From Nonlabens ponticola (GTDB lineage Bacteria > Bacteroidota > Bacteroidia > Flavobacteriales > Flavobacteriaceae), in contig NZ_CP034549.1 of assembly GCF_003966335.1 (NCBI RefSeq), positions 2,040,001-2,072,000 of the forward strand: a DNA stretch of 32,000 nucleotides, written 5' to 3'. The notes below the pieces were generated by a model. The model had not been told where the DNA came from. It made no database searches and was given only the letters and a program-made list of their open reading frames with translations. The position numbers were made by a program, and so were the translations under genes. Positions within the stretch are counted from its first letter, which is position 1, and the number at the start of each line of letters is the position of its first letter. This document shows, piece by piece, positions 5,234 to 17,779 of this stretch.

Positions 5234-5322
5234 AGTAGCAAATATAAATAGGTCACGGCTCCCATTTGTTAGGGAAATCATACTTTTGATGCAGTTAGAA
5301 AAATGTTGAGATGAGTAGTGAT

Positions 5323-5341
5323 TACGCTTTCGCGAAAGCTA
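5323..5341. repeat. Copy of the GCTTTCGCGAAAGC palindrome family (intergenic, between the divergent PRODH gene and aroB)
   Basis: tacgctttcgcgaaagcta. The 14-nt perfect palindrome core lies at 5326-5339. Confidence 0.9.
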
Positions 5342-5379
5342 ACTCAAACACCAACTTTCCTGCATAATCCTATATCCTC

Positions 5380-6450: not shown

Positions 6451-6522
6451 ATGAAATTGCCATCTAGATTGTGATGTCTCAATATTTTTAATAATTTCCC
6501 ATTTTCAATGTAAACTCTTATC

Positions 6523-6843
6523 ATGAGAAATGTTATTGTAGATTATAAAAAACTTACACCAGACGTCCTGCAGCTACTGGTAGAACGCTATCCTGACGGT
6601 TATGGCGATGACGATGTCATATCGTTTAAGAATCATAAGTATGAGACGATTCACGCCGTCGAGGTTAAGACTGAAGACACTAAATATCTTGTCAAAATAT
6701 CGCAAAAATTAGAAATGCAAATGGAGGCATTTGACGTGGATGATTATGATGACCACCAGATGGACGACCCTGAAGCCCTACCAGAAATGGATCCCAACGA
6801 AGTAGCTGATGACGTTGCAGATGATGAAGCTGACGAAGATTAG
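6523..6843 (+). CDS. Hypothetical small protein with a strongly acidic C-terminal tail
   Basis: 106 aa. The C-terminal 45 aa are rich in D and E (DVDDYDDHQMDDPE...DDVADDEADED). Confidence 0.5.
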   Translation: MRNVIVDYKKLTPDVLQLLVERYPDGYGDDDVISFKNHKYETIHAVEVKTEDTKYLVKISQKLEMQMEAFDVDDYDDHQMDDPEALPEMDPNEVADDVADDEADED

Positions 6844-6872
6844 TTAGCAGTTAGCAGTTAGCAGAAAAATAT

Positions 6873-6920
6873 TAAAGGTTTAGAAAATTGATGCAAATAC
6901 ATCGCTTTTCTAAACCTTTA
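6873..6920. terminator. Bidirectional intrinsic terminator between convergent genes
   Basis: A 15-bp perfect stem, taaaggtttagaaaa (6873-6887) with ttttctaaaccttta (6906-6920). An A-run upstream gives a T-run on the minus strand for sucC. Confidence 0.65.
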
Positions 6921-6975
6921 TCTCTTTAATACTAATTCAGTAGCTACTAATTATAAGCAACCAAGAAGTAGATGA

Positions 6976-8169
6976 CTATGCGAGTACTGCTTGTACCTTG
7001 TCTGCGGCTTCTTGGAACTGTACAGCACTTTGTACGTCCATACCACTGTTATCTATAAGTTCTTTAGCGATCTCTGCATTAGTTCCTTGTAGTCTTACAA
7101 TCAATGGAACGTTCATGGCATCACCCATACTTTTCTTAGCATCGATTATTCCTTGTGCCACACGGTCACAACGTACAATACCACCAAAGATGTTGACCAA
7201 TATTGCCTTTACACCTTTATCCTTTAAGATGATCTTGAATGCTTCTTCTACACGCTTAGCATCTGCAGTACCACCTACATCTAGGAAGTTTGCTGGTGAT
7301 CCACCCGATTGTTTGATCAAATCCATGGTAGCCATAGCAAGTCCAGCACCGTTTACCATACATCCTACATTACCATCAAGGTCAACATAGTTCAAGCCTA
7401 CAGCCTTTGCCTCTACCTCTACTGGATTTTCTTCACGTACATCACGCATTGCCTCTAGATCCTTGTGACGGAATAATGCATTCTCGTCCAAAGTGATTTT
7501 ACAGTCAACTGCAATGATGCGCTCATCACTTGCCTTTAATACTGGATTGATTTCAAAAAGTGCGCTGTCAGATCCTACATAGGCTGCATATAGTTTAGAA
7601 ACGAACTTGGTCATTTCCTTAAATGCCTTACCGCTCAAACCTAGATTAAAAGCAATCTTACGAGCCTGGAATCCTAAAAGACCCAATGCTGGATCTACAA
7701 CCTCAGTAAATATTAAATGTGGAGTTTCTTCTGCAACTGTTTCTATGTCCATTCCACCTTCGGTAGAATACATGATCATATTTTTTCCTTGTGCACGATC
7801 TAGTAATACAGACATGTAGAATTCCTCTACCTCTACCTCACCTGGCTCATAAACATCTTCTGCGATCAACACTTGGTGAACCCTTTTACCTTCGGCAGTG
7901 GTTTGTGGAGTTACTAGATCCATACCTATAATTTCTCCAGCGATTGTTTTTACATCGTCAAGGCTTTTTGCAAGTTTTACACCACCACCTTTACCACGTC
8001 CACCAGCGTGAACCTGTGCTTTGATGACGTGCCATCCTGTACCGGTTTCCTCAGTAAGTTCCTTGGCAGCTGCAACAGCTTCATCAGCTGTAGTGGCCAC
8101 TTTACCACGTTGAATGGTAACACCGTAACTAGCTAAAATTTCTTTTCCTTGATATTCGTGAAGGTTCAT
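6976..8169 (-). CDS. sucC: Succinate--CoA ligase (ADP-forming) beta subunit
   Basis: 397 aa. MNLHEYQGKE..., VIKAQVHAGGRGKGGGVK and NIFGGIVRCD are unmistakable SucC motifs. Confidence 0.95.
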   Translation of the reverse strand: MNLHEYQGKEILASYGVTIQRGKVATTADEAVAAAKELTEETGTGWHVIKAQVHAGGRGKGGGVKLAKSLDDVKTIAGEIIGMDLVTPQTTAEGKRVHQVLIAEDVYEPGEVEVEEFYMSVLLDRAQGKNMIMYSTEGGMDIETVAEETPHLIFTEVVDPALGLLGFQARKIAFNLGLSGKAFKEMTKFVSKLYAAYVGSDSALFEINPVLKASDERIIAVDCKITLDENALFRHKDLEAMRDVREENPVEVEAKAVGLNYVDLDGNVGCMVNGAGLAMATMDLIKQSGGSPANFLDVGGTADAKRVEEAFKIILKDKGVKAILVNIFGGIVRCDRVAQGIIDAKKSMGDAMNVPLIVRLQGTNAEIAKELIDNSGMDVQSAVQFQEAADKVQAVLA

Positions 8170-8200
8170 ATATGTTGTTTAATTACTGTAATTGTTTGAG

Positions 8201-8208
8201 CAAAAATA
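8201..8208 (-). promoter_or_regulatory. Bacteroidota -7 box (TAnnTTTG) for sucC
   Basis: The minus strand reads TATTTTTG, 31 nt upstream of the sucC ATG. Confidence 0.4.
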
Positions 8209-8339
8209 ATGAAGCATATCGCTATTGCGAAATTATTACCCTTAAAAGGATGTTAGTTGTTGGTGTGGTAGGTATCACTATTGTTTTTGGTTCATGTTTG
8301 TTCTTAATATCTTGAATCCTTTGCTTGACAACCAAGGTT

Positions 8340-8665
8340 TCACGACTGCACTTCGACTAAGCTCAGTGACCGTCGTTAGAAATAGTTTCCTACGCGATTA
8401 CGTGGAGTCAGATGCTGAAATAAATTCAGCATGACAAACATGGTTGTGATTGTCACCCTGAATTTATTTCAGGGTCTGTGCGATGTTCTGACCCATGTCA
8501 GATGCTGAAACCAGTTCAGCATGACAGAAGTTTGCTGCGTTAGGGACCTGCCTGTCGTGCCTCGGGCAGGCAGGTTGTAGTGAAAAACCTTTTTAAGCCT
8601 TTTTTACAGGAAACATTTTGGCTTAAAAAGATTGCAGCGGAAAGCCCGGCCGCAGGCGCTGCGAT
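8340..8665. repeat. Array of short stem-loop (REP/MITE-like) elements in the sucC-lysA intergenic region
   Basis: Hairpins at 8407-8436 and 8497-8526 share the same arms, gtcagatgctgaa/ttcagcatgac, with different loops. Further hairpins lie at 8452-8476 (ccctgaa/ttcaggg), 8546-8574 (acctgcctg/caggcaggt) and 8594-8627, plus a GC-rich one at 8634-8663. Confidence 0.7.
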
Positions 8666-8824
8666 GAGCAGTGCCGTAGTGCAACGCCCAATTGAAAAAC
8701 ACCATGAAAGCTAAAGCGAAAAACAACATCTTAACTCAAGTTATAAATGGCCTGTAACCACGCAAAATAACGATGCGCTCTATAAACTTCTCGTTAATAA
8801 TAGGGTAAAATGGTCTTGCCCTAT

Positions 8825-8832
8825 TACTTTTG
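8825..8832 (+). promoter_or_regulatory. Bacteroidota -7 box (TAnnTTTG) for lysA
   Basis: TACTTTTG, 30 nt upstream of the ATG at 8862. Confidence 0.4.
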
Positions 8833-8861
8833 TTGGCTTAATCAATTTTAATCGCATAACA

Positions 8862-10094
8862 ATGAATGCACAAGATCTATTAAACATTGCACAGGAACAC
8901 GGTAGTCCTGTCTATGTCTATGATGCGGCGACGATGGTGTCGCAGTATGAACGTTTGACGTCCGCTTTTGCGAAAGTGGAAAACCTTAGAATTCACTACG
9001 CTGTAAAGGCGTTGTCAAACATTTCTATCTTGAAGCTTTTTAAACAGTTAGGCGCCAGACTCGATACCGTGAGTCTACAGGAAGTCAAGCTGGGTCTAGC
9101 GGCTGGCGTGGATCCCGCTAAAATTATCTATACGCCTAATGGCGTTTCCCTTGAGGAAATTGAGCGCGTGGCTGAGATGGGCGTGCAGATCAATATTGAC
9201 AATTTATCTATTCTTGAACAATTTGGTGCCAAGCATCCTACGGTTCCCGTTTGTGTGCGTATCAACCCGCATGTAATGGCTGGTGGTAATGCTAATATTA
9301 GCGTTGGGCATATTGATTCTAAGTTTGGTATTTCCATTCATCAAATTCCGCTATTGTTGCGCATCGTCGAGAATACAGGCATGAAAGTGAATGGCGTGCA
9401 TATGCATACCGGTAGCGATATTCTGGATATAGGCGTGTTTTTATACGCAACGGAAATTCTTTTTGAAACGGCGGCGAAGTTTAAGGATCTGGAATTTATT
9501 GACTTTGGCAGTGGTTTTAAGGTTCCTTATAAGGAAGGCGATGTATCGACTGATATTGAAGAACTAGGCGATCAACTGAGCGATAGGTTCAATGAATTTT
9601 GTAAGTCCTATGGTAAGGATATAGCGCTGGCGTTTGAGCCTGGTAAGTTTCTGGTATCGCAATCGGGCCACTTTCTGGCTCAAGTGAATGTGATCAAGCA
9701 GACGACGAGCACGGTTTTCGCACACATAGATACTGGTTTTAACCACTTGATACGTCCTATGATGTATGGTTCCTACCATGGTATTACCAACATATCTAAC
9801 ATAGATGGTAAAAACCGATTCTATAGCGTGGTAGGCTACATCTGTGAAACGGACACGTTTGCTAACAACAGACAAATTTCAGAAATCGCCGAAGGTGATA
9901 TCCTGTCGTTCTCTAATGCGGGTGCGTACTGTTTCTCCATGGCTAGCAATTACAACAGCCGCTACAGACCTGCTGAGGTGCTATGGCACAACGGCAAAGC
10001 CCACTTGATACGTGAGCGCGAGACGTTTGACGACATCTTGAACAAGCAAGTGGATGTTGAGATTGAAGTGGGTGGCGAGTTTGTTGAAGCTTAG
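8862..10094 (+). CDS. lysA: Diaminopimelate decarboxylase
   Basis: 410 aa. HYAVKA (PLP lysine), HMHTGS, EPGK/EPGR-like EPGKFLV and CETDTF are fold-type III PLP decarboxylase motifs. Confidence 0.9.
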   Translation: MNAQDLLNIAQEHGSPVYVYDAATMVSQYERLTSAFAKVENLRIHYAVKALSNISILKLFKQLGARLDTVSLQEVKLGLAAGVDPAKIIYTPNGVSLEEIERVAEMGVQINIDNLSILEQFGAKHPTVPVCVRINPHVMAGGNANISVGHIDSKFGISIHQIPLLLRIVENTGMKVNGVHMHTGSDILDIGVFLYATEILFETAAKFKDLEFIDFGSGFKVPYKEGDVSTDIEELGDQLSDRFNEFCKSYGKDIALAFEPGKFLVSQSGHFLAQVNVIKQTTSTVFAHIDTGFNHLIRPMMYGSYHGITNISNIDGKNRFYSVVGYICETDTFANNRQISEIAEGDILSFSNAGAYCFSMASNYNSRYRPAEVLWHNGKAHLIRERETFDDILNKQVDVEIEVGGEFVEA

Positions 10095-10122
10095 TTTGCA
10101 TCATATTATTAGATATGCTGTC

Positions 10123-10605
10123 ATGATGATTTTGATGGCTCTTTTGGCAAGCTGTTCAGTTATTAAATCAGACGCCGATGAAGTCGATAAGATTAGAAAA
10201 AATCAAGATTTCACGGTAATCACACCAGAAGGCTGGACACCATTTGTTGATCACCACTACTTAAGCTATACTCCTCATAAAACTGGTAAATTATTCAGGA
10301 CTTACGTGAGCGTAGAAAAATTGCCCTTAGAAGATGTTTACACTACTCTGGATGATTATGTAGATTATTGGATTAAGTATCGCAAGACAGATGAAGTAAA
10401 AAAAGCTATTTCTAGTGATTTTGATAATGCTATTCAAACAAGTACTGAACGTATTGATTACGATGGTCAAAAGCGGCGTTCAATGAATATTTATTTTGAA
10501 TATGATAATTACTATTACCAATTTGTATATTCATCAGTAGATGAAGATTACGACCAGTATTTTGAACCTGCTATGCAGATTTATGATAGTATCTCTTTTA
10601 AGTAA
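10123..10605 (+). CDS. Hypothetical lipoprotein
   Basis: I prefer the internal ATG, which gives MMILMALLASC (lipobox LLASC). The 10054 start in the track would overlap lysA by 41 nt. Confidence 0.55.
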   Translation: MMILMALLASCSVIKSDADEVDKIRKNQDFTVITPEGWTPFVDHHYLSYTPHKTGKLFRTYVSVEKLPLEDVYTTLDDYVDYWIKYRKTDEVKKAISSDFDNAIQTSTERIDYDGQKRRSMNIYFEYDNYYYQFVYSSVDEDYDQYFEPAMQIYDSISFK

Positions 10606-10613
10606 ATGGTATT

Positions 10614-10647
10614 AAACTCTCAATCTTTTCAAAGATTGAGAGTTTTT
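10614..10647 (+). terminator. Intrinsic terminator after the lipoprotein gene
   Basis: Stem aaactctcaatc/gattgagagttt followed by TTTTT. Confidence 0.7.
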
Positions 10648-10734
10648 AAATTACACATTGTTCTGTTTTGTTTACCTGGCCTGAGCTAGACGAAGGGTCT
10701 CAGCATATCACAGTCGATTACCTAAATACTACAT

Positions 10735-10770
10735 AGCTATCTATTCATGATGTAATAGATAGCTTTTTAT
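10735..10770 (+). terminator. Second, orphan intrinsic-terminator-like hairpin
   Basis: An 11-bp stem, agctatctatt (10735-10745) with aatagatagct (10754-10764), an 8-nt loop and a TTTT tail. No ORF lies upstream of it. Confidence 0.45.
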
Positions 10771-10776
10771 TTACGT

Positions 10777-10796
10777 GGATACCGCTTTCGCGAAAG
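10777..10796. repeat. Left arm of a 20-bp inverted repeat, an asymmetric variant of the palindrome family
   Basis: ggataccgctttcgcgaaag is the exact reverse complement of 15168-15187. Confidence 0.9.
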
Positions 10797-11017
10797 TTTG
10801 CTTTTTGAAAGATTCTGCGGTGTTTGAAGTGGTTTGTTGGATGTTGATGTGGTTATTGCAAGTTGGTTTTGTGTTTCTTTACCAAGATTGATGTTGGTGA
10901 AAGTCGACTTCTTTTAGAATAACGTTGCATAATACACCAGTAGAGTGTTATGTGCAAATGATTCAAACCGATCACATAACATTCTTTCTGATTCTGTATA
11001 GGTGATATAGTTTTGGG

Positions 11018-11025
11018 TATGTTTG
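11018..11025 (+). promoter_or_regulatory. Bacteroidota -7 box (TAnnTTTG) upstream of the NTase-like/DUF262 operon
   Basis: TATGTTTG, 31 nt upstream of the ATG at 11056. A second match, TAGTTTTG, lies at 11008-11015. Confidence 0.4.
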
Positions 11026-11055
11026 TATATCTACCAATAAGGCATAACTAATAAA

Positions 11056-11646
11056 ATGAATAAAGAAGAACTAATAGAACATTTGATTTCCAAATCTGAA
11101 TTGGACATTTACTATGATTATCTTTTAGGTCAAGAGGTTTGGTATTTTAAGAACAATGGAGATGACTTTAGTTCCGATTACGACTCTTTTAAAAAGTTTA
11201 TTTCTCGAAATCTAAATATCCCATTTAACAATATTTCAATTGTTGGTAGTGCTAAAACCAGATACAGCTTTTCACCGTCTAAAAAATTGTCCGAGTTCCA
11301 CGAGCATTCAGATTTTGATTTAATAATTGTTTCAAATAAACTTTTCCGAAACATTTGGGAAGCTTTTAGGGATATTTCTTCAGGACAATATTTACAAAAT
11401 TACAATCAAAAATGCGGTAATGTGTTCAGTGGATTCATAAGTATAAAAGACGACGACCCAACATACGGAAATGAAACACTCGAAAATTGGCAGAGGTCAG
11501 TACTAGCTTTTAAAGCGGAACTGCAGTTAACATTCAATATACAGCATGAAATAAACTATCGAATATACTCAGATTGGGAATCGGTTGAAGAATATCATCT
11601 GAAAGGAATAACAAAACTAAAAAACTCAGTGAATGAAACTAATTGA
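11056..11646 (+). CDS. Hypothetical protein with pol-beta-superfamily (minimal) nucleotidyltransferase-like motifs
   Basis: 196 aa. ISIVGSAKTRYS (G-S motif) is followed about 25 aa later by SDFDLIIVS (DxD). A third acidic cluster is KDDD. The gene is very AT-rich and overlaps the next gene by 14 nt. Confidence 0.45.
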   Translation: MNKEELIEHLISKSELDIYYDYLLGQEVWYFKNNGDDFSSDYDSFKKFISRNLNIPFNNISIVGSAKTRYSFSPSKKLSEFHEHSDFDLIIVSNKLFRNIWEAFRDISSGQYLQNYNQKCGNVFSGFISIKDDDPTYGNETLENWQRSVLAFKAELQLTFNIQHEINYRIYSDWESVEEYHLKGITKLKNSVNETN

Positions 11647-12703
11647 ACAAATTGACATACAACCACAAACATCTAAATGGCTTTATGACCTTAGCCAAAA
11701 AGGATTGTTAGAAGTAGATAATTCATTTCAGCGTAATTACGTTTGGACAGTAAAAAATCAAATTCAACTAATTGAGTCAATTCTTATTGGTTACCCGATA
11801 CCAGAAATTTATTTATGGAATACGGGAACAGATGAAAATACAGGAGATACTAAGTATTCAATTATTGATGGGCAACAACGATGCGGTGCTGTTTTTCAAT
11901 TTATAGCCAACACTTATAAGCTCAAAGAAAGTCACCTTGATGAGAATAATCCTAAACTTTCGACAATCAAAAATAGATTTTTCAAAGATTTGGAAACGGA
12001 AGATAAAAAGGCAATTTGGTCTTATGTGTTTTCAATACGATTGGTAAGAAATCAGGTGGAACGAGTATCTATTGTGAATATGTTTTTACGCCTTAACAGT
12101 AATAATATGACTCTGAATCCTCAAGAACTAAGAAATGCCGAATTTGAGGGTGAATTCATGAGTTTAGCTTCTAAACTATCTGAACTTAATTTTTGGGATG
12201 AAAACAAAATATTTGGTGTCGCCGATAGAAGAAGAATGAGAGATATCTCCTTTGTAAGTACGCTTTTAGTTTTCATGAAAAAAGGAATTGGTGAAGATAT
12301 CGGTAATGCCAATTTAAATCAGATTTATGATTTGTATAATGACGAATACCCTGATAAAGAAAAGGATAAGAGCAAATTCACTTCGATAATCGATGAAATA
12401 CATAAGATTATTGATAGTAATACAGAGAGAATTAAAATCTTAAAACGTCAAGTACATTTTTATACCTTATTTACAGTTTTATTTGACTTGTTAAACAATC
12501 AGGCTAATTTGACGGACAAACAAATTTCCAACTACCGCGATTTCATTGATAATTACGAAAATGAAGTTGTTTTAGCAAAATACTTCCCAGAATTAATTAG
12601 AGATATTTATCTATACAAATCTTTAGTAAAAGAAGGAACAAGACAGAAGTCTAACAGGTTTGAGAGACACAGAATATTGAAAAAAATAGTTCTGAGTAAA
12701 TAG
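11633..12703 (+). CDS. DUF262 (ParB/Srx-fold, GmrSD N-terminal-like) domain protein without a DUF1524/His-Me nuclease domain
   Basis: 356 aa. FQRNYVW..Q...LIESIL.GYPIPEIYLW, IIDGQQR (DGQQR signature) and LRLNSNNMTLNPQELRNA match the DUF262 pattern. The C-terminal half looks helical, with no H-N-H or EHxxP-type motif visible. Confidence 0.75.
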   Translation: MKLIEQIDIQPQTSKWLYDLSQKGLLEVDNSFQRNYVWTVKNQIQLIESILIGYPIPEIYLWNTGTDENTGDTKYSIIDGQQRCGAVFQFIANTYKLKESHLDENNPKLSTIKNRFFKDLETEDKKAIWSYVFSIRLVRNQVERVSIVNMFLRLNSNNMTLNPQELRNAEFEGEFMSLASKLSELNFWDENKIFGVADRRRMRDISFVSTLLVFMKKGIGEDIGNANLNQIYDLYNDEYPDKEKDKSKFTSIIDEIHKIIDSNTERIKILKRQVHFYTLFTVLFDLLNNQANLTDKQISNYRDFIDNYENEVVLAKYFPELIRDIYLYKSLVKEGTRQKSNRFERHRILKKIVLSK

Positions 12704-12939
12704 CTATGCTCAGAATTGACCATACGTAAAACTAACTAAATCGCTAAAATGGACGCATTTTATCTAAACACCAAACGAAAAGCAAAGTTCGATGAATTTC
12801 TACGCTACGCATAGCCAATATAGTTTTAGCCTATTGCCAGCATGCTTAACTTCTTGTTTTCTTCTCACTCACATACTCGCTCGTCAGAGCAAGGATGAAA
12901 ATCAGATTTTGAAAACGATCTTGTCAAGAAATTCATCCT

Positions 12940-13434
12940 ATGAAAAACTCCTTTAAACTACTGGTACTCTCTTCATGCATTATCTCATGCACTCCATCAA
13001 TTAATTTTGAAAAAGCTGAAGAATTGACCAATTTAATCGAGAGCAACAGTAAAATTTATCGATTCTCTATAAATGAGAATACAACGACTATAAATGGTAA
13101 AGAAATAATTACCAATGAAGAAGATATTGGGTATGTAAAGGAAAAGGGTTTGATGTTTGAATCTAAACGAGACAACTTACAAGAGTTGGAAATGTCAATT
13201 GAAGATTTGGAATCTTTCTTTTTCATATTTGAAAACACAAAAGCATATAGTGTAGATTTTAAGGATGGCAAAGCATATTTCATTGTGGATAGTTTTTTGG
13301 ATAATTCTAAAGGATACCTATACTCAAAAGAAGAGTTAAATACTGATAAAAGCTCAATAAAACTAAATGACGGTAATATTAAAGTTTTGGATAAAATCAG
13401 ACCAAATTGGTATAAAGCAACCGCATGGCACTAA
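12940..13434 (+). CDS. Hypothetical lipoprotein
   Basis: 164 aa. The signal and lipobox region reads LLVLSSCIISC. AT-rich, no family recognised. Confidence 0.5.
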   Translation: MKNSFKLLVLSSCIISCTPSINFEKAEELTNLIESNSKIYRFSINENTTTINGKEIITNEEDIGYVKEKGLMFESKRDNLQELEMSIEDLESFFFIFENTKAYSVDFKDGKAYFIVDSFLDNSKGYLYSKEELNTDKSSIKLNDGNIKVLDKIRPNWYKATAWH

Positions 13435-13453
13435 GTGTGAATAATTTTTCAAA

Positions 13454-14074
13454 ATGATCTTATTCATAATCCGATTTTGTAGATTCTCTTTTTTCACAGG
13501 TATGCTGCTATTAACTAGCTGCAAACAAGATAAACCAGCAGCCACGAGTCAATCGATAAATAAAAAAGCTACTACCATAACGGTATCTGAAACTCCAGTT
13601 TTCAAATACGACTCTCTTTACATTGCAAATTCATTTGATTATCCTGTAGGTAAACCTAGTGCCAAAGGCTACTACAACGCACAGAAGTTTCAAGAGAATA
13701 ATCATCTAGGTGATGACTGGAATGCTGTGACCGGTGGCAATTCTGATTTGGGCGATCCCATTTATTCCATTGCAAATGGTTATGTCAAATCTACTCAAGA
13801 TCATGGTGGTGGTTGGGGAAAAGTCGTCAGAATCATTCATCAAATGCCAAATGGCAATTTTATGGAGTCTTTGTACGCGCATTGTGAGAGCATTCTTGTA
13901 CAAGAAGGCAAATACGTAGGTAAGGGCGATCAAATCGCTACCATGGGAAACGCAGATGCAGCCTACCTCGCTCACTTGCATCTAGAGATTAGAGATAGTA
14001 TTAACAGGCAACTAGGTGCTGGTTATTCTACAGATACAGATGGTTATGTGGATCCTACTGCGTTTATTTCATAG
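13454..14074 (+). CDS. M23 (LytM/lysostaphin-type) zinc metallopeptidase, lipoprotein
   Basis: 206 aa. Lipobox LLLTSC, HLGDDW (HxxxD) and AHLHLEIR (HxH) are the M23 zinc-ligand motifs. Confidence 0.8.
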   Translation: MILFIIRFCRFSFFTGMLLLTSCKQDKPAATSQSINKKATTITVSETPVFKYDSLYIANSFDYPVGKPSAKGYYNAQKFQENNHLGDDWNAVTGGNSDLGDPIYSIANGYVKSTQDHGGGWGKVVRIIHQMPNGNFMESLYAHCESILVQEGKYVGKGDQIATMGNADAAYLAHLHLEIRDSINRQLGAGYSTDTDGYVDPTAFIS

Positions 14075-14130
14075 CATCGATAGCAGCTACATTCACTATA
14101 TTTAAGTCTCTTTAGTTGATTTAAAAAGCC

Positions 14131-14643
14131 ATGAAAAAATATCTAGTATTTATTTTCATTTTGACCGCAGCAAAAAGTTTTGCTTGTAATTGCGGAATAG
14201 TGAGACTATCAGATTTGCAACAATCAGAATTGGCAAAATCAGAATGCATATTTATAGGTGAGGTTATAGAGATCGATGATACTAATCTTACATTCAAAAT
14301 AATAGTAACTGAATCTCTCGATAGCGGTGATGCTATAGGAAATACTTACCTAGGCAAGAATTGGAAGTCATGTTCACCGGTCGTGGACGCACATGGACAA
14401 TGGATCATGTACGGGCAAATGAAAGATGGGTTTTTACGACCTAATTTATGTGGTATAAGCAGAAGCTTTGAAGACCCAATCGTTAGAAAGGTATCAAATA
14501 ATCCAAACCTCTACAGCAAAAACATCAACGACGAGGAAAGAAAAAGGCTTTTCAATAAATTACAAATTGAAAACAAGCGAAAAGCAATCACCGACCTAGA
14601 TCATGAAATCAACGCCCTGCGCAGATTAAGAGACGAGAAATAA
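14131..14643 (+). CDS. Secreted Cys-x-Cys protein with a TIMP/NTR-like cysteine pattern and a charged coiled-coil tail
   Basis: 170 aa. The signal peptide ends ..AKSFA, then CNCG. Cysteines fall at mature positions 1, 3, 21, 63 and 89. Segments such as ECIFIGEVIEI and QWIMYGQMKDGFLRPNLCG resemble the TIMP N-domain layout. Confidence 0.35.
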   Translation: MKKYLVFIFILTAAKSFACNCGIVRLSDLQQSELAKSECIFIGEVIEIDDTNLTFKIIVTESLDSGDAIGNTYLGKNWKSCSPVVDAHGQWIMYGQMKDGFLRPNLCGISRSFEDPIVRKVSNNPNLYSKNINDEERKRLFNKLQIENKRKAITDLDHEINALRRLRDEK

Positions 14644-14653
14644 ATCCACCACC

Positions 14654-15022
14654 ATGCAAGTTACAGCCGCCAAAAATGAAAAAGTAGCCCAAATGATATT
14701 TGGTAATATCTATCCGCTTTACTTAGATAGATTGATAAAAAAGGGTCGTACCAAAGAAGAACTAGACCAGGTCATCAAGTGGCTTACTGGTTATGATCAA
14801 GCAACGCTGGAACAGCTTATTGAAGAAAAGGTAACCTACCAGACCTTTTTCCAAAATGAAACCATGCACCAAAATGCCCAGATGATCAAAGGCGTAGTCT
14901 GCGGCTATCGCATAGAAGAAATCCCAGCAGAGTTTGCTGTTTATAAGCAATGCCGACAGTTAGAAAAACTTATTGATGAACTCGCTCGAGGCCGCAAAAT
15001 GGAAAAGATATTACGTTCTTGA
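14654..15022 (+). CDS. DUF2200 family protein
   Basis: 122 aa. IFGNIYPLYLDRLIKKGRTKEELDQVIKWLTGYD matches my recollection of the conserved DUF2200 N-terminus. Confidence 0.65.
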   Translation: MQVTAAKNEKVAQMIFGNIYPLYLDRLIKKGRTKEELDQVIKWLTGYDQATLEQLIEEKVTYQTFFQNETMHQNAQMIKGVVCGYRIEEIPAEFAVYKQCRQLEKLIDELARGRKMEKILRS

Positions 15023-15167
15023 AAAGTCACGCTTGACGCAATCTTATTTACTATTCTGCTTTTTCAAAGTTTTGAAATAGATTATTTATGTAAAGCAACT
15101 ACCTATCGATAGTTGAACTTCCAATCGATATCCTATCAAATTCTTTAGAAATCTGCCATTTAGCACT

Positions 15168-15187
15168 CTTTCGCGAAAGCGGTATCC
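15168..15187. repeat. Right arm of the 20-bp inverted repeat
   Basis: ctttcgcgaaagcggtatcc is the exact reverse complement of 10777-10796. Confidence 0.9.
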
Positions 15188-15370
15188 CAAATACTTTATC
15201 TAGGACCTAGGAAAAATTGTTCTAGCGTTGACAGGTGCTTACTGGCTTGGTGAATTACAAGACTATATCGAGAAAGTGACCTTTGCAGAGATCGCAATGC
15301 TTCCTAAAGCAGCTTTAACAATCAGTCGCTTTGTATTAAAATTTGGGATTGAGATATCATTATTTAAGAA

Positions 15371-15523
15371 GTGAATAAAAAACACTTAAAAATCGACATC
15401 ATCCCTAACCTTGTCAGTCCAAAGTGTACCGTAGATGGTAAACGTTGGATTATAGCCATCAAAGAATTAGGCGTTGAAGATCAAATTGAAATCGAGAGGA
15501 GTCCTTTTCAACTCAATTCATAG
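15371..15523 (+). pseudogene. Degraded N-terminal remnant of a DsbA/FrnE-family thiol oxidoreductase
   Basis: A 50-codon GTG ORF, ..LKIDIIPNLVSPKCTVDGKRWIIAIKELGVEDQIEIERSPFQLNS*. It parallels the FrnE-like N-terminus (KIDI.SD.VCPWCYIGKRRLE.A...L.....EIEW.PFQLNP). The CPWC active site has decayed to SPKC, and the rest of the gene (about 180 aa) is missing. Confidence 0.4.
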
Positions 15524-15706
15524 CGACTGATTTTACATTACAACCAGTAGTGAAATTTGTGATTAAATTAAAAATAATGTAACATACCCCATAAAAAACA
15601 GGGTTGTAAACACTAAATATGTATTTTGTGAAAAACAAACCCCATCGTTTTTACACCTAGCGTCAAAATAATTCGAAATTGCTGAAGTAAACTAAAAACG
15701 CGCACC

Positions 15707-16792
15707 ATGATCGTAGGCATTCCCAAAGAAATTAAAAATAATGAAAGTAGAGTCAGTTTGACGCCTGCCGGCGTTTATGAACTGGTTAAAAACAATCACA
15801 CGGTCTATGTGCAGACGCAAGCCGGTATAGGCAGCGGTTTTACTGATGATCATTACTTAAAGGCTGGCGCTACTATCCTGGATACGATTGAGGAAGTCTA
15901 TGCCATTAGTGAGATGATAGTCAAGGTCAAGGAACCTATTGCGCATGAATATAAGTTGGTTCGCGCGGGACAGGTACTGTTTACCTACTTCCATTTTGCT
16001 TCCAGTAAATCGTTGACAGAGGCTATGATCAAGTCCAAAGCCGTTTGCATTGCCTATGAAACGGTAGAAGACGATGAAGGGTCACTGGTGCTGCTCACGC
16101 CCATGTCTGAAGTAGCAGGAAGACTTGCCATACAGCAAGGTGCCAAGTATCTAGAAAAACCTGTAAAAGGTCGTGGCGTTCTTTTGGGCGGCGTTCCAGG
16201 TGTCGCACCGGGAAAAGTGCTGGTTTTGGGTGCTGGCGTTGTCGGTATTCAAGCAGCCAAAATGGCGGCAGGACTAGGCGCGCATGTGACCATCATGGAT
16301 GTCAACATGAAGCGCCTGCGTTATGTCAATGATGTCATGCCACCGCATGTGGTGACCGAGTTCTCTAATGAATTTAATATCAGGAAGCACATTAAAACGC
16401 ATGACCTTATCATAGGTGGTGTGCTCCTCAAAGGTGCCAAAGCGCCCAATCTAATCACTCGTGATATGCTCAAGGAAATGCGACCAGGTACGGTTATCGT
16501 TGATGTTGCCGTGGATCAAGGTGGTTGTGTAGAAACCACCAGACCTACCACGCATGAAGATCCTATATACATCATTGACGATGTGGTGCATTATTCGGTT
16601 GCCAATATGCCTGGAGCCGTACCATATACATCGACCGTGGCATTAACAAATGTGACCTTACCGTATGTACTGCGATTGGCAAATCAAGGTTGGGAAACAG
16701 CTTGTGGGAATGACCCTAGTTTACACAAGGGTTTGAACATCATTGATGGAAAAGTGATGTACCATGAGATTAATGAAGCGTTTGGTTGGTAA
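15707..16792 (+). CDS. ald: Alanine dehydrogenase
   Basis: 361 aa. MIVGIPKEIKNNE.RV.LTP, VKVKEP, VLVLGAGVVG and VDVAVDQGG are canonical Ald motifs. Confidence 0.9.
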   Translation: MIVGIPKEIKNNESRVSLTPAGVYELVKNNHTVYVQTQAGIGSGFTDDHYLKAGATILDTIEEVYAISEMIVKVKEPIAHEYKLVRAGQVLFTYFHFASSKSLTEAMIKSKAVCIAYETVEDDEGSLVLLTPMSEVAGRLAIQQGAKYLEKPVKGRGVLLGGVPGVAPGKVLVLGAGVVGIQAAKMAAGLGAHVTIMDVNMKRLRYVNDVMPPHVVTEFSNEFNIRKHIKTHDLIIGGVLLKGAKAPNLITRDMLKEMRPGTVIVDVAVDQGGCVETTRPTTHEDPIYIIDDVVHYSVANMPGAVPYTSTVALTNVTLPYVLRLANQGWETACGNDPSLHKGLNIIDGKVMYHEINEAFGW

Positions 16793-16855
16793 GTAAAATA
16801 GTGAACTCACGGTGCCTGTATCAAAATGCAAATCTAATCCCGATTAAAAATTTGA

Positions 16856-16863
16856 TATTTTTG
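16856..16863 (+). promoter_or_regulatory. Bacteroidota -7 box (TAnnTTTG) for the DUF808 gene
   Basis: TATTTTTG, 21 nt upstream of the ATG at 16885. Confidence 0.4.
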
Positions 16864-16884
16864 TAGTTCAATCAATTTCCTTAC

Positions 16885-17769
16885 ATGGCCTCAGGATTCT
16901 TCGCACTATTAGACGACATCGCAGTACTTATGGACGATGTTGCGGCTATGAGTAAAGTCGCAACCAAAAAAACTGCAGGAATTCTAGGTGACGATCTTGC
17001 TGTAAATGCAGAGAAGGCATCTGGATTTGTTTCTTCGCGAGAAATACCTGTTTTGTGGGCAATTACCAAAGGTTCTGCTTTAAACAAGCTCATCATCTTA
17101 CCTATCGCATTTTTGCTCAGTGCGTTCTTACCAGTTGCGGTCACGATTATTTTATTGTTGGGTGGCGTTTATCTAGCCTTTGAAGGTGCCGAGAAGATCT
17201 ACGAGTGGATTTTTCCGCATGCTGCTCCAGAGATTGACATCCCATCTAGAGAATTGACAGAAGATGAGATTGTTGCTCATGAAAAGGAAAAAATTAAAAG
17301 CGCTATTGTTACAGACTTTATTCTTTCGGTTGAGATTGTCATTATCGCATTAAGCGCCGTCGTGACAGAACCTATTCTTAATCAAATTCTGGTCGTTACG
17401 GTGGTAGCGATAGTTGCGACAATTGGCGTGTATGGTATCGTTGCAGCCATAGTACGCATGGATGATCTAGGTGCGCGTTTAATACGCAATAGTGGTGATA
17501 CCGGCATCATAAACGGTATCGGTAAATTTCTAGTGGCGGCGCTGCCATGGATTGTGAAGAGTCTTTCTGTGATTGGTACGATTGCGTTGCTCCTAGTTGC
17601 TGGTGGCATTTTTGTTCATGAATTACATTTTATTCATGACTTACTGCACGGCTTGCCTTCCATAGTTGCCGAGGCGCTTACCGGTTTAGTGGTTGGCTTT
17701 GTGGCTTTGTCATTGTATAAATTACTTAAGTTTCTGTTCTTTAAAAAAACATCCTCAACTGATCACTAG
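16885..17769 (+). CDS. DUF808 (YedI-like) inner membrane protein
   Basis: 294 aa. FFALLDDIAVLMDDVAAMSKVATKKTAGILGDDLAVNAEK closely parallels the YedI N-terminus. Multiple TM segments. Confidence 0.8.
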   Translation: MASGFFALLDDIAVLMDDVAAMSKVATKKTAGILGDDLAVNAEKASGFVSSREIPVLWAITKGSALNKLIILPIAFLLSAFLPVAVTIILLLGGVYLAFEGAEKIYEWIFPHAAPEIDIPSRELTEDEIVAHEKEKIKSAIVTDFILSVEIVIIALSAVVTEPILNQILVVTVVAIVATIGVYGIVAAIVRMDDLGARLIRNSGDTGIINGIGKFLVAALPWIVKSLSVIGTIALLLVAGGIFVHELHFIHDLLHGLPSIVAEALTGLVVGFVALSLYKLLKFLFFKKTSSTDH

Positions 17770-17779
17770 AACAGAATAA

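What the first reader, a model, noticed from the sequence alone, without database searches (positions are those of the whole stretch)
11056..12703. Coupled nucleotidyltransferase-like ORF and nuclease-less DUF262 (DGQQR) ORF: candidate uncharacterised two-gene defence module
**Seen in the sequence**
- Two ORFs overlap by 14 nt (11633-11646), which implies translational coupling.
- Two TAnnTTTG boxes lie upstream (11008-11015 and 11018-11025).
- A roughly 400-bp non-coding gap separates the pair from the preceding gene.
- ORF1 (196 aa) carries the minimal pol-beta nucleotidyltransferase pattern: IVGSAKTRYS, about 25 aa, SDFDLIIVS, and a later KDDD.
- ORF2 (356 aa) has the full DUF262 signature: FQRNYVW, GYPIPEIYLW, IIDGQQR, LRLNSNNMTLNPQELRNA.
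- I cannot see any DUF1524/His-Me or HNH-type motif in the C-terminal half of ORF2.
- My hand counts of sample 60-nt lines give about 25-30% G+C here (11041-11160, 12361-12420). The sampled lines in lysA and ald (9061, 9601, 16201) give about 48-58%.

**Established knowledge**
- In characterised defence proteins (GmrSD type IV restriction, BrxU, SspE), DUF262 is the NTP-binding ParB-like module and is fused to a DUF1524 nuclease effector.
- DndB is a related DGQHR protein.

**Inference**
- Here the nuclease effector is absent and a separate small NTase-like partner is genetically coupled instead.
- I do not recognise this architecture as a named system.
- The NTase could be the effector (nucleotidylation or signal synthesis) or a toxin or antitoxin-like partner, with DUF262 acting as the nucleic-acid or NTP sensor.
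Basis: partly seen in the sequence, partly recalled or inferred. Interest (0 to 1): 0.75.

Follow-up and report, generated by a model that had tools for sequence, protein, structure and literature searches.

The report
Mobile nucleotidyltransferase-like plus DUF262 gene pair
Two overlapping genes in this Nonlabens genome, a small nucleotidyltransferase-like protein and a nuclease-less ParB-like NTPase, form an ancient, always-paired, horizontally mobile module that in related bacteria comes with its own cytosine methylase, which points to an uncharacterised restriction-like immunity system.

Summary
ORF1 (11056-11646, 196 aa) and ORF2 (11633-12703, 356 aa) overlap by 14 nt, and all quoted motifs are present.

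- **ORF2:** a ParB-DUF262 NTPase with an all-helical C-terminal domain and no DUF1524/HNH nuclease. It resembles Menshen NsnA and PD-T4-2_A in architecture but is an ortholog of neither.
- **ORF1:** no database family passes threshold. The GS...SDxD signature is near-invariant, the predicted α/β order fits a minimal pol-β nucleotidyltransferase, and relatives give recurrent sub-threshold NTP_transf_2/Polbeta hits. Fold searches found nothing significant, so the NTase call is probable, not proven.
- **Pairing:** an ORF2 homolog lies directly downstream in 22 of 22 genome loci and in 8 of 9 distant family representatives, across Bacteroidota, Gammaproteobacteria and Bacillota.
- **Mobility:** DNA homology ends at the two genes (11041-12712). 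In Teredinibacter the pair is an integron cassette.
- **New finding:** in a divergent clade an orthologous C5-cytosine methylase is co-inherited directly upstream. Other relatives sit beside m5C restriction-modification systems with Vsr, on integrative elements.

Neither the window nor any locus of its clade has a nearby methylase or a defence island. No PADLOC model or paper searched describes the pair. Verdict: a new variant of nuclease-less DUF262 systems, function unproven.

The parts
11056..11646 (+). ORF1, 196 aa: divergent minimal (MNT-type) pol-beta nucleotidyltransferase-like protein. It is the upstream partner of the pair.
   Evidence: ORF confirmed. It is 100% identical to a Nonlabens ponticola hypothetical protein, with 136 homologs of about 196-198 aa. 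The wider family has 907 cluster representatives at E<=1e-3. The AF2 model has pLDDT 93.9 and an alpha-beta(GS)-alpha-beta(DxD)-alpha-beta order. 47 of 114 relatives hit NTP_transf_2 and 13 hit Polbeta, all below threshold. No Pfam, NCBIfam or PADLOC hit for the window protein itself.
11245..11250 (+). Codons for G64-S65, the NTase 'hG[GS]' motif.
   Evidence: G64 is invariant and S65 is present in 111 of 114 diverse family members.
11308..11319 (+). Codons for S85-D86-F87-D88, the 'SDxD' metal-binding strand typical of MNT-type NTases.
   Evidence: S85, D86 and D88 are invariant in 114 of 114 members. The sub-threshold Pfam NTP_transf_2/Polbeta alignments in relatives fall on this strand.
11633..11646 (+). 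14-nt overlap of the ORF1 stop and the ORF2 start (ATGAAACTAATTGA): translational coupling.
   Evidence: The overlap is identical in length in the window and in every window-clade locus checked. Divergent relatives keep tight junctions, often with a GGAGG-like Shine-Dalgarno inside the ORF1 3' end.
11633..12703 (+). ORF2, 356 aa: ParB-DUF262 NTPase plus helical ParBDB-like domain, with an NsnA / PD-T4-2_A-like architecture and no nuclease domain.
   Evidence: Pfam GmrSD_N 8.6e-26. PADLOC NsnA 3.4e-38 over the full length and PD-T4-2_A 5.6e-23. Foldseek top hits are BrxU (probability 0.96-0.97), then ParB/Noc CTP-binding domains.
11717..12145 (+). DUF262 (ParB/Srx-like NTP-binding) domain, aa 29-171. 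It contains motif I QRxxxW (aa 33-38), motif II DGQQR (aa 79-83, nt 11867-11881) and motif III FxxxN (aa 151-155).
   Evidence: Domain limits. All three motif cores are invariant in 35 homologs. Motif definitions are taken from PMC12065111.
12152..12700 (+). All-alpha C-terminal domain (aa 174-356), equivalent to the ParBDB DNA-binding domain of NsnA. It is not a nuclease.
   Evidence: The AF2 model shows only helices from aa 174 onward, with pLDDT above 90 from about aa 240. The NsnA profile aligns through to aa 353. There is no [DE]HxxP, HNH or PD-ExK pattern, and H275 is the only invariant histidine.
11041..12712 (+). Limits of the horizontally transferred cassette: the two genes plus about 15 nt upstream and about 9 nt downstream.
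   Evidence: blastn homology to 26 related loci (67-76% identity) starts at 11041-11104 and ends by 12712. The flanks are unrelated. This is the lowest-GC stretch of the window.
11008..11025 (+). Two TAnnTTTG boxes (Bacteroidota -7-like), a possible local promoter acquired at this insertion site. They are not part of the conserved cassette.
   Evidence: Present as described. The motif is not enriched in the window (33 found, 36 expected). The boxes lie upstream of the homology boundary.
10606..11055 (.). 450-bp non-coding gap upstream, holding two hairpins (10614-10645 and 10735-10764) that probably terminate the upstream gene.
   Evidence: No Rfam family matches. No methylase remnant is detectable.

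Best explanation
The pair is a self-contained, horizontally mobile, restriction-like immunity cassette.

**ORF2 as sensor.** ORF2 is a ParB-DUF262 NTPase with a helical ParBDB DNA-binding domain. I propose it is the NTP-driven DNA sensor that reads whether DNA is foreign or how it is modified. This is the role the same domains play in GmrSD, BrxU, SspE, Menshen NsnA and PD-T4-2_A.

**ORF1 as catalytic partner.** ORF1 is made at a fixed ratio through the conserved start/stop overlap. It is a divergent MNT-type nucleotidyltransferase that most likely works in complex with ORF2. It supplies the only other catalytic activity in the system, which is nucleotidyl transfer. I take this to be the effector step. 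Possible targets are a nucleic-acid end, a tRNA or a protein, and the effect would be to stall phage replication.

**Link to cytosine methylation.** In a sister clade a dedicated C5-cytosine methylase is co-inherited directly upstream. There the pair plays the 'R' role of a restriction-modification system, gated by m5C.

**The window's clade.** It travels without a methylase, even as an integron cassette. It must therefore be harmless to unmodified host DNA. It is either modification-dependent (type IV-like) or triggered by infection.

**What is shown and what is inferred.**
- Shown: the domain content of ORF2, the near-invariant catalytic-type motifs in both proteins, the obligate pairing, the mobility, and the methylase co-inheritance in the sister clade.
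- Inferred: complex formation, ORF2 as sensor, ORF1 as effector, the target, and the defence phenotype.
For: - **Pairing:**
  - An ORF2 homolog lies immediately downstream in 22 of 22 genome loci.
  - The same holds in three further genomes.
  - It also holds in 8 of 9 distant family representatives, with profile E from 1e-47 to 6e-15.
  - ORF2 is 33% identical (E 2e-59) to the partner in one distant locus.
- **Coupling:** the junction is tight everywhere.
- **ORF2 identity:** searches place it as a DUF262 NTPase with intact motifs I-III and an NsnA-like helical C-terminus.
- **ORF1 identity:**
  - G64, S85, D86 and D88 are invariant, and S65 is present in 111 of 114 sequences that go down to 22% identity.
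  - The predicted secondary-structure order fits an NTase.
  - 47 of 114 members hit NTP_transf_2 and 13 hit Polbeta, in the correct register, and no other family is hit by more than 4.
  - UniRef names three homologs as nucleotidyltransferases.
- **Methylation link:**
  - A C5 methylase lies directly upstream in L020, L021, L022 (degraded), L029, L035 and L036.
  - These methylases are 39-68% identical to each other but 24-32% identical to other C5 methylases in the same loci.
  - In L022 the triad is decaying together.
  - Other relatives adjoin NgoMIV-, NaeI- and MspI-type systems with Vsr, integrases, recombinases or plasmid genes.
- **Mobility:** homology is confined to 11041-12712, the GC is low, attC-like repeats flank the pair in Teredinibacter, and insertion sites vary.
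- **Precedent:** nuclease-less DUF262 sensors with separate effectors are validated defence systems (PMC12065111, PMC10952713). HEPN-ParB-methylase operons were noted earlier (PMC3710099).
Against: - There is no experimental evidence for any member of the family.
- ORF1's NTase fold is not confirmed by structure comparison.
  - The best PDB hit is Tam41 at E 0.3, and the best viral-library hit is at E 0.08.
  - PDB profile searches found nothing.
  - hhalign against kanamycin nucleotidyltransferase gave probability 0.5%.
  - All Pfam hits are below the gathering score.
- The third catalytic carboxylate is not fixed in position across the family.
- In the window and in most loci of its clade the neighbours are housekeeping genes.
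  - Only a minority of flanks carry defence genes such as AbiU, Olokun, specificity subunits or PIN.
  - No C5 methylase occurs in the window or in any locus of its clade.
- The methylase linkage comes from a small, non-randomly sampled set. The six directly linked cases belong to one clade.
- One distant relative (L038) has no ORF2-like frame in the 396 nt downstream.
- Neither protein carries a recognisable nuclease. If restriction needs DNA cleavage, this model lacks an executor.
Confidence: 0.45

Rival explanations
1. Toxin-antitoxin-like logic. ORF1 is an MntA-like regulator that nucleotidylates ORF2 and keeps it inactive. ORF2, a ParB/Srx-fold protein, would itself be the toxic effector, acting as a nickase/DNase or as an NTP-dependent DNA clamp. 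Infection or loss of the cassette would release ORF2.
For: - The gene order has a small upstream NTase translationally coupled to a larger downstream partner. This is the order of MntA-HepT type VII TA modules (established knowledge; PMC13000451 abstract).
- ORF1 has the MNT-type GS...SDxD signature.
- Neither protein has a dedicated nuclease domain, so ORF2 may have to be the effector.
- Some ParB/Srx proteins, such as Osa, are reported as DNases (cited in PMC12065111).
- The cassette moves as a bare pair, as TA modules do.
Against: - Both proteins diverge at similar rates across loci, for example 83/82, 67/66 and 40/35% identity. There is no fast-evolving antitoxin.
- ORF2 has no HEPN motif.
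- The co-inherited methylase in the sister clade fits self/non-self marking of DNA better than an addiction module.
- In characterised DUF262 systems the domain is a sensor/NTPase, not the executor (PMC12065111, PMC10952713).
Confidence: 0.2
2. ORF1 is not a nucleotidyltransferase. It would be a new-fold subunit that uses its invariant SDxD acidic pair for metal-dependent DNA cleavage, or else a non-catalytic adaptor. ORF1 and ORF2 together would form a two-subunit restriction endonuclease, classical in the methylase-linked clade and type IV-like in the solo clade.
For: - No significant structural match to any NTase despite a model with pLDDT 93.9.
- PDB profile searches were empty.
- All Pfam NTase hits are sub-threshold and limited to the DxD strand.
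- The third NTase carboxylate is not conserved.
- The methylase-plus-pair operon has the shape of a restriction-modification system that needs a nuclease.
Against: - GS is near-invariant 20 residues before SDxD, and the helix-strand order matches the pol-beta NTase core.
- The only Pfam families hit recurrently are two NTase families of one clan.
- There is no PD-(D/E)xK, HNH or GIY-YIG pattern.
- The top PDB fold hit, though not significant, is an NTase-fold enzyme, Tam41.
Confidence: 0.15
3. The module modifies or maintains DNA rather than restricting it. The ParB-like NTPase would target the NTase, and the methylase where present, to DNA to write or extend an epigenetic mark or to process m5C-related damage. 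This would be analogous to ParB-like DndB/DpdB in modification complexes, or to phage clusters that combine a C5-MT, an AMP-forming ligase and a ParB-domain protein.
For: - The pair is tightly linked to C5 methylases and Vsr in divergent relatives.
- Phage cytosine-hypermodification clusters combine C5-MT-like enzymes, adenylating enzymes and ParB-domain proteins (PMC12783734, PMC8256090).
Against: - The window clade has no methylase within reach and still conserves all catalytic motifs.
- The pair-adjacent methylases have ordinary m5C motifs, with ENV, QxRxR and a PCP variant that NgoMIV/NaeI-type methylases also carry.
- There is no TET, glycosyltransferase or ligase partner.
- No close relatives occur in phage genome collections.
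- The nearest characterised relatives of ORF2 are defence sensors.
Confidence: 0.1
4. The pair is a housekeeping or otherwise non-conflict gene pair, or a decaying remnant with no current function in this genome.
For: The neighbours in the window and in several relatives are housekeeping genes.
Against: - The distribution is patchy and cross-phylum, at variable insertion sites, with low GC.
- One copy is an integron cassette.
- Both ORFs are intact with invariant motifs.
- Divergent relatives sit with restriction-modification and mobile-element genes.
Confidence: 0.05

Closest known systems
Menshen (NsnABC): NsnA component
   Same: ORF2 has the NsnA type I architecture: ParB-DUF262 with motifs QRxxxW, DGxQR and FxxxN, followed by a helical ParBDB domain, with no nuclease. 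The PADLOC NsnA model aligns over its full length at E 3.4e-38 (PMC12065111).
   Different: - There is no NsnB ABC ATPase and no NsnC effector next to ORF2.
- The partner is an upstream NTase-like protein.
- A genuine NsnA scores 360 bits against the model and ORF2 scores 130.
PD-T4-2 (DUF262 protein plus HEPN protein, E. coli ECOR65)
   Same: It is a two-gene system built on a nuclease-less DUF262 protein of about 360 aa. ORF2 hits the PD-T4-2_A model at 5.6e-23. HEPN and MNT domains are classical functional partners, so the two systems look like alternative pairings on one sensor scaffold.
   Different: - Here the partner is NTase-like, not HEPN. ORF1 gives no PADLOC hit at E<=1 and has no Rx4-6H motif.
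- Here the partner lies upstream of the DUF262 gene.
- The match to the A model is modest (80 bits).
GmrSD / BrxU / SspE (type IV and phosphorothioate-sensing restriction enzymes)
   Same: They share the N-terminal DUF262 NTP-binding domain with DGQQR. The best structural match of ORF2 is BrxU. The helical middle domain is equivalent to ParBDB (PMC12065111).
   Different: The DUF1524 His-Me nuclease is absent. ORF2 ends after the helical domain.
MntA-type minimal nucleotidyltransferases (type VII HepT/MntA TA) and NTase toxins AbiEii/MenT
   Same: These are small stand-alone pol-beta-type NTases with a GSxxxG...SDxD signature. They act in two-gene conflict modules by nucleotidylating a partner protein or tRNA (established knowledge).
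   Different: - ORF1 does not reach the threshold of any NTase family.
- It has about 20 residues between GS and DxD, three extra N-terminal helices, and a conserved C-terminal NYRIY...YH element.
- Its partner is a DUF262 protein, not HEPN or AbiEi.
Type II m5C restriction-modification systems
   Same: In the sister clade an orthologous C5 methylase is co-inherited immediately upstream of the pair, in an operon shaped like M followed by R.
   Different: - There is no recognisable endonuclease fold.
- The 'R' function would be two proteins, an NTase-like one and a ParB-like one.
- The window's clade lacks the methylase altogether.
Dazbog (DzbAB)
   Same: It is a two-gene defence system containing a DUF262 protein without DUF1524 (PMC10952713).
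   Different: No Dazbog model is among the PADLOC matches for either ORF1 or ORF2 at E<=1. That PADLOC-DB v2 contains Dazbog models is my recollection and was not verified here.

Membership tests
GmrSD-family type IV restriction enzymes | N-terminal DUF262 (GmrSD_N) domain with the DGQQR NTP-binding motif | tested here: met
   PF03235 at 8.6e-26, covering aa 29-171. DGQQR is invariant in 35 homologs. BrxU is the top fold hit.
GmrSD-family type IV restriction enzymes | C-terminal DUF1524 His-Me finger nuclease ([DE]HxxP), fused or as a separate GmrD | tested here: not met
   No DUF1524 hit. Residues 174-356 are predicted all-helical. There is no [DE]HxxP motif. ORF1 and the other neighbours are not DUF1524 proteins.
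Menshen (NsnABC) | NsnA: ParB-DUF262 plus ParBDB | tested here: met
   The NsnA model aligns aa 7-353 to profile positions 46-379 of 385 at 3.4e-38. The score is 130 bits against 360 for a genuine NsnA, so this is a relative with the same architecture, not an ortholog.
Menshen (NsnABC) | Adjacent NsnB ABC ATPase and NsnC effector | tested here: not met
   Downstream of ORF2 are a 164-aa ORF with no family and an M23 peptidase. Relatives show no ATPase next to the pair.
PD-T4-2 | PD-T4-2_A DUF262 protein | tested here: inconclusive
   The match is 5.6e-23 and 80 bits over aa 17-309. It is weaker than the match to NsnA, and no family threshold was available.
PD-T4-2 | HEPN partner (PD-T4-2_B) | tested here: not met
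   ORF1 has no PADLOC hit at E<=1, and neither protein has an Rx4-6H motif.
Pol-beta nucleotidyltransferase superfamily (MNT type) | hG[GS] motif followed by [DE]h[DE]h on the next strand | tested here: met
   G64 is invariant, S65 is present in 111 of 114, and S85-D86-x-D88 is invariant in 114 sequences. They sit at the ends of predicted strands E60-63 and E87-92. The spacing is 20 residues, longer than the usual 9-13.
Pol-beta nucleotidyltransferase superfamily (MNT type) | Third catalytic carboxylate on the following strand | tested here: inconclusive
   D132 and D134 are nearly invariant in the close clade. Across the wider family there is only a positionally variable acidic patch at 131-135.
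Pol-beta nucleotidyltransferase superfamily (MNT type) | Significant sequence-profile or fold match to a known NTase | tested here: inconclusive
   - 47 of 114 relatives hit PF01909 and 13 hit PF18765, in the right register, but all are below the gathering score.
- Foldseek gives only non-significant NTase-fold hits.
- hhalign against kanamycin nucleotidyltransferase gives the right register at probability 0.5%.
Pol-beta nucleotidyltransferase superfamily (MNT type) | Nucleotidyl-transfer activity | not testable with these tools
   This needs a biochemical assay.
Type II restriction-modification system | Cognate DNA methyltransferase linked to the restriction genes | tested here: not met
   A C5-methylase HMM finds nothing in the 32-kb window or in any window-clade locus. 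It is met only in the sister clade: L020, L021, L029, L035 and L036.
Type VII toxin-antitoxin (HepT/MntA) | HEPN RNase toxin partner with Rx4-6H | tested here: not met
   ORF2 is a DUF262/ParBDB protein with no Rx4-6H motif.
Anti-phage defence system (generic) | Enrichment next to known defence genes or on mobile elements | tested here: inconclusive
   - Window clade: mostly housekeeping flanks, with a few defence genes among 105 flank ORFs.
- Divergent relatives: 9 of 9 loci with usable context have a C5 methylase or Vsr nearby, often with REases, integrases or recombinases.
- The sampling was small and no background control was computed.
Anti-phage defence system (generic) | Protection phenotype | not testable with these tools
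   This needs phage challenge experiments.

The most novel reading that the evidence does not exclude
The pair, with its methylase in the sister clade, defines a new class of restriction-modification-like immunity. In this class 'restriction' is carried out by nucleotidyl transfer rather than by an endonuclease. A ParB-like NTPase would read cytosine-methylation status and direct a minimal nucleotidyltransferase to tag or cap invading nucleic acid, or a replication factor. Methylase-less derivatives would have become free-moving cassettes that integrons can capture.
Probability: 0.2. Interest if true: 0.85.

Novelty: new variant of a known kind. Interest (0 to 1): 0.62.

Why it matters
- **Unexplained effector step.** DUF262/ParB-like NTPases are recurring sensors in bacterial immunity (GmrSD, BrxU, SspE, Menshen, PD-T4-2, Dazbog). 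How the nuclease-less versions signal to their effectors is largely unknown.
- **A minimal, widespread system.** This pair has about 900 sequence clusters across at least three phyla. It consists of one sensor-type protein and one small enzyme-like partner, and it contains no recognisable nuclease.
- **A ready-made genetic test.** The methylase-linked sister clade allows a direct test of whether the pair's activity is gated by m5C.
- **Possible new mode of restriction.** If the NTase-like protein is the effector, this would be a way of restricting foreign DNA without cleavage.
- **Link between two module types.** The system would connect HEPN/MNT-type conflict modules with DUF262-based DNA sensing.
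- **Annotation gap.** Current defence-annotation tools would miss the system, or would report ORF2 alone as an orphan DUF262 or NsnA-like protein.

Tried and rejected
- **Foldseek on the ORF1 model.** Nothing significant against the PDB or BFVD.
- **PDB profile searches.** The close (A1) and broad (A2) ORF1 profiles returned only chance hits.
- **hhalign against kanamycin nucleotidyltransferase.** The sequence was recalled from memory and verified as 1KNY. The register was correct but the probability was 0.5%.
- **Direct family scans of ORF1.** Pfam, NCBIfam and PADLOC gave no hits.
- **ORF1 as the partner of an E. coli prophage DUF262 gene (L040).** Rejected: hhalign probability 0.15%, and that locus is not clearly PD-T4-2 either.
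- **PADLOC 'REase_II' hit as evidence that ORF2 is a restriction enzyme.** Rejected: the model matches only the DUF262 region and also matches a genuine NsnA.
- **Pair carried by phages or plasmids.**
  - There are no close relatives in IMG/VR.
  - INPHARED has no ORF1 relative and only distant DUF262 proteins.
  - Only one plasmid or chromid carries it.
  - The PHROG families phrog_32008 and phrog_2598 do match.
- **Wider locus scans.** Scans with diverse alignments failed for lack of a conserved peptide block.
- **Upstream gap.** No Rfam family, no methylase remnant, and no convincing flanking repeats.
- **TAnnTTTG enrichment.** None: 33 found against 36 expected.
- **Hypermodification-type methylase next to the pair.** Rejected: the m5C motifs are canonical, and the PCP variant of motif IV is shared with NgoMIV/NaeI-type methylases.
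- **Literature.** Searches for an NTase-DUF262 system found none. The supplements of the Menshen paper were not available.

Full report
**1. The observation**

The window holds ORF1 at 11056..11646 (+, 196 aa) and ORF2 at 11633..12703 (+, 356 aa), overlapping by 14 nt.

The upstream gap is 450 bp. Both TAnnTTTG boxes exist at 11008-11015 and 11018-11025. The motif is no more frequent in the window than in shuffles: 33 matches against 36 +/- 5.6 expected.

The pair is 31.1% G+C. The window is 39.7%, lysA 44.6% and ald 46.2%. The pair is the lowest 1.67-kb stretch in the window.

The window comes from Nonlabens ponticola: both proteins are 100% identical to its proteins.

**2. ORF2**

- Pfam places GmrSD_N/DUF262 at aa 29-171 (8.6e-26) and finds nothing else.
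- PADLOC's best matches are NsnA of Menshen (3.4e-38, aligned end to end) and PD-T4-2_A (5.6e-23).
- The three DUF262 motifs defined in PMC12065111 (QRxxxW, DGxQR, FxxxN) are invariant in 35 homologs.
- The AlphaFold model has mean pLDDT 73, and above 90 from about aa 240. Everything after aa 174 is helical.
- Foldseek returns BrxU at probability 0.96-0.97, then the CTP-binding domains of ParB and Noc. No nuclease appears.
- There is no [DE]HxxP, HNH-like, HEPN or PD-(D/E)xK pattern. H275 is the only invariant histidine.

ORF2 is therefore a ParB-DUF262 NTPase with a ParBDB-type helical domain and no DUF1524 nuclease.

It is not an NsnA ortholog. A genuine NsnA, from Vibrio phage L9-1 with NsnB next to it, scores 360 bits against the same model, while ORF2 scores 130. 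No NsnB or NsnC gene is nearby.

**3. ORF1**

The window protein hits nothing in Pfam, NCBIfam or PADLOC. It has 136 close homologs of 196-198 aa in Bacteroidota and Gammaproteobacteria. An exhaustive profile search finds 907 cluster representatives at E<=1e-3, nearly all stand-alone proteins of about 200 aa.

Evidence for a nucleotidyltransferase:

- In 114 sequences that go down to 22% identity, the only invariant residues are G64, S85, D86 and D88.
  - S65 is present in 111 of 114.
  - The majority sequence reads GSAKxGFS...SDIDxxIVS, which is the MNT-type signature.
- The AlphaFold model is confident (pLDDT 93.9).
  - Its element order is helix 38-53, strand 60-63 ending at GS, a short helix, strand 87-92 carrying DxD, a helix, strand 127-131 followed by an acidic patch, a helix and a strand.
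  - This is the order of the pol-beta NTase core.
- 47 of the 114 relatives hit Pfam NTP_transf_2 and 13 hit Polbeta. No other family is hit by more than 4.
- Those hits fall on the SDxD strand in the correct profile register.
- UniRef names three homologs as nucleotidyltransferases.

Evidence against:

- All the Pfam hits are below the gathering score.
- Foldseek against the PDB and BFVD gives nothing significant. The best PDB hit is Tam41, an NTase-fold enzyme, at E 0.3.
- PDB profile searches are empty.
- hhalign against kanamycin nucleotidyltransferase aligns helix-strand-GS in register but with probability 0.5%.
- The third carboxylate is not fixed in position.

I put the NTase fold at about 0.7.

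**4. The pair is obligate and ancient**

- In 22 of 22 genome loci fetched with the ORF1 profile, an ORF2 homolog follows directly. One is cut by a contig end. One, in a Clostridiaceae genome, is degraded.
- The same holds in three further genomes.
- It also holds in eight of nine distant family representatives, with profile E from 1e-47 to 6e-15.
- In one distant locus the partner is 33% identical to ORF2 (E 2e-59).
- The exception is a 1-kb contig (L038) with no ORF2-like frame in the 396 nt downstream.
- The 14-nt overlap is identical in length throughout the window's clade. Most divergent relatives keep junctions of -11 to +16 nt.
- The two proteins diverge at similar rates.

**5. The pair is a bare mobile cassette**

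- Nucleotide homology between the window and 26 related loci starts at 11041-11104 and ends by 12712. The flanks are unrelated even in the closest relatives.
- Insertion sites differ between genomes and are mostly housekeeping: here lysA, lipoprotein-like ORFs, an M23 peptidase and ald.
- In Teredinibacter purpureus the pair sits in an array of small same-strand ORFs. These are separated by repeats that start with ...CTAACAAG and end with ...GCGTTA(GGC), which match integron attC core sites. An IS110 transposase is nearby.
- The upstream gap in the window has no Rfam match and no methylase remnant.
- The repeat search found no convincing element boundaries.

**6. The link to cytosine methylation**

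- In L020, L021, L029, L035 and L036 a C5 cytosine methylase lies directly upstream on the same strand. The gap is 2-14 nt, or a 14-nt overlap.
- In L022 a methylase fragment, an ORF1 fragment and a frameshifted ORF2 are decaying together.
- These pair-adjacent methylases are 39-68% identical to one another. They are only 24-32% identical to the other C5 methylases in the same loci. They form an orthologous group inherited together with the pair.
- Other relatives sit beside complete m5C systems:
  - M plus R of NgoMIV type, on a plasmid-like contig.
  - NaeI, Vsr, HNH and a methylase, on an integrase island.
  - Vsr and MspI after an integrase and a resolvase.
- All nine divergent loci with usable context have a C5 methylase or Vsr within about four genes.
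- A C5-methylase HMM finds nothing in the 32-kb window or in any locus of the window's clade.
- Among 105 flanking ORFs of that clade, only a few are defence genes: AbiU, Olokun OloA/OloB, specificity subunits, AIPR and PIN.
- The pair-adjacent methylases have ordinary m5C motifs. Their PCP variant of motif IV also occurs in the NgoMIV/NaeI-type methylases.

**7. What it most likely is**

The best-supported reading is a restriction-like immunity cassette.

- ORF2 is the NTP-driven DNA and modification sensor. The same domains play this role in GmrSD, BrxU, SspE, NsnA and PD-T4-2_A (PMC12065111, PMC10952713).
- ORF1 is a stoichiometric catalytic partner. Its nucleotidyl-transfer activity is the only other enzymatic function available to act as an effector.
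- The co-inherited methylase in the sister clade implies that the pair's activity is gated by m5C there.
- The solo clade moves without a methylase. It must therefore tolerate unmodified host DNA, so it is either modification-dependent or triggered by infection.
- I give this reading 0.45 overall.

Rivals:

- A TA-like arrangement in which ORF1 holds ORF2 in check by nucleotidylation (0.2).
- ORF1 as a non-NTase nuclease or adaptor subunit of a two-protein restriction enzyme (0.15).
- A DNA-modification or maintenance module (0.1). Phage clusters of a C5-MT, an AMP-forming ligase and a ParB-domain protein are the precedent.
- No conflict function at all (0.05).

**8. Comparison with known systems and novelty**

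Nuclease-less DUF262 is not new. Menshen, PD-T4-2 and Dazbog all have it. HEPN-ParB-methylase operons were noted in 2013.

What I could not find anywhere is the NTase-like partner family, its obligate upstream pairing with an NsnA-like protein, or the methylase-NTase-DUF262 triad. I looked in:

- PADLOC-DB v2.
- The 2025 Menshen survey of DUF262 neighbourhoods.
- Searches of about 8 million papers and preprints.

A description in a journal outside that library, or in REBASE, cannot be excluded.

I classify the pair as a new variant of a known kind. It is an attractive experimental target because it is small, widespread and comes with a natural methylase-linked control.

**9. Limits**

- There is no experimental evidence.
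- The divergent loci were few and were not sampled at random. The six directly methylase-linked cases belong to one clade.
- Only 32 kb of the N. ponticola genome was visible, so an unlinked methylase cannot be excluded.
- The ORF1 fold assignment rests on motifs, predicted topology and sub-threshold profile hits.

Noticed in passing
L027 (Teredinibacter purpureus CP060092.1) 4000-20594; the pair is at 10001-11657: The pair lies in an array of many small same-strand ORFs. These are separated by repeats of about 60-115 nt that begin ...CTAACAAG and end ...GCGTTA(GGC), which match integron attC R''/R' core sites. An IS110 transposase sits at 13639-14901. This looks like a sedentary chromosomal integron with the pair as one cassette.
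   Followed up: partly
L020 2296-3402; L021 6926-7987; L029 4931-5986; L035 1158-2291; L036 3878-5014: The C5 methylases directly upstream of the pair form their own orthologous subfamily, 39-68% identical to each other. Their motif IV reads GGPPCPDFS, with Pro in place of the usual Gln of PCQ. The NgoMIV/NaeI-type methylases of L037 and L039 also have PCP (GGLPCPPFS). The target sequence is unknown. Several neighbouring systems are of NgoMIV, NaeI or MspI type, enzymes that from memory recognise CCGG-core sites (not checked here).
   Followed up: partly
L022 (Clostridiaceae bacterium 35-E11 CP121688.1) 7267-9100: A methylase fragment, an ORF1 fragment (aa 136-194 only) and an ORF2 split over three frames lie together, next to a reverse-transcriptase gene (RVT_1, 9547-10149). 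The whole triad appears to be decaying as a unit.
   Followed up: partly
L041 (Vibrio phage L9-1 OR762784.1) 488-4796: A P2-like (Peduoviridae) phage carries a cytosine-specific methyltransferase. It is followed by a 646-aa NsnA with an N-terminal extension (360 bits) and by NsnB (344 bits). This is a phage-borne Menshen system with a methylase directly upstream.
   Followed up: no
L040 (Escherichia phage vB_EcoM-689R6 ON470584.1) 2953-4664: Next to the integrase of an icd-adjacent prophage lie a 350-aa DUF262 protein (NsnA model 109 bits, PD-T4-2_A only 49 bits) and a 216-aa protein. The 216-aa protein has no PADLOC hit and no similarity to the ORF1 family. This may be yet another two-gene DUF262 module with an unknown partner.
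   Followed up: partly
window 11056-12703 (PHROG matches): ORF1 matches phrog_32008 (9e-9, full length) and ORF2 matches phrog_2598 (6e-41, full length). Both families have unknown function, so homologs of both proteins exist in phage or prophage protein sets. Even so, tblastn found no ORF1 relative in INPHARED, and the IMG/VR scan found none.
   Followed up: partly
L038 (ENA metagenome scaffold, 1063 nt) 47-667: This ORF1-family member (P0259) has no ORF2-like reading frame in the 396 nt downstream. It is the only exception to the pairing that I saw. It could be a decayed locus, an assembly problem or a truly solo gene.
   Followed up: partly
window 10054-10605 and 12940-13434: Two low-GC ORFs (33.7% and 29.9%) flank the cassette. 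They have lipoprotein-like N-termini (LLASC, LSSC) and no Pfam family. The whole 10.0-13.5 kb stretch is below the window's GC, so the pair may have landed in an already variable region.
   Followed up: no
window 10614-10645, 10735-10764, 10942-10985: The upstream gap holds a perfect 15-bp hairpin just after the 183-aa ORF, a second terminator-like hairpin with a T-run, and a 13-nt inverted repeat about 25 nt upstream of the TAnnTTTG boxes. The inverted repeat could be an operator.
   Followed up: no
L036 (ENA metagenome scaffold) 1-6678: This is a dense m5C island. It runs methylase, BpuJI_N/NOV_C-type endonuclease, methylase, Vsr, a third methylase, and then the pair, all on one strand with overlapping or abutting genes.
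   Followed up: no
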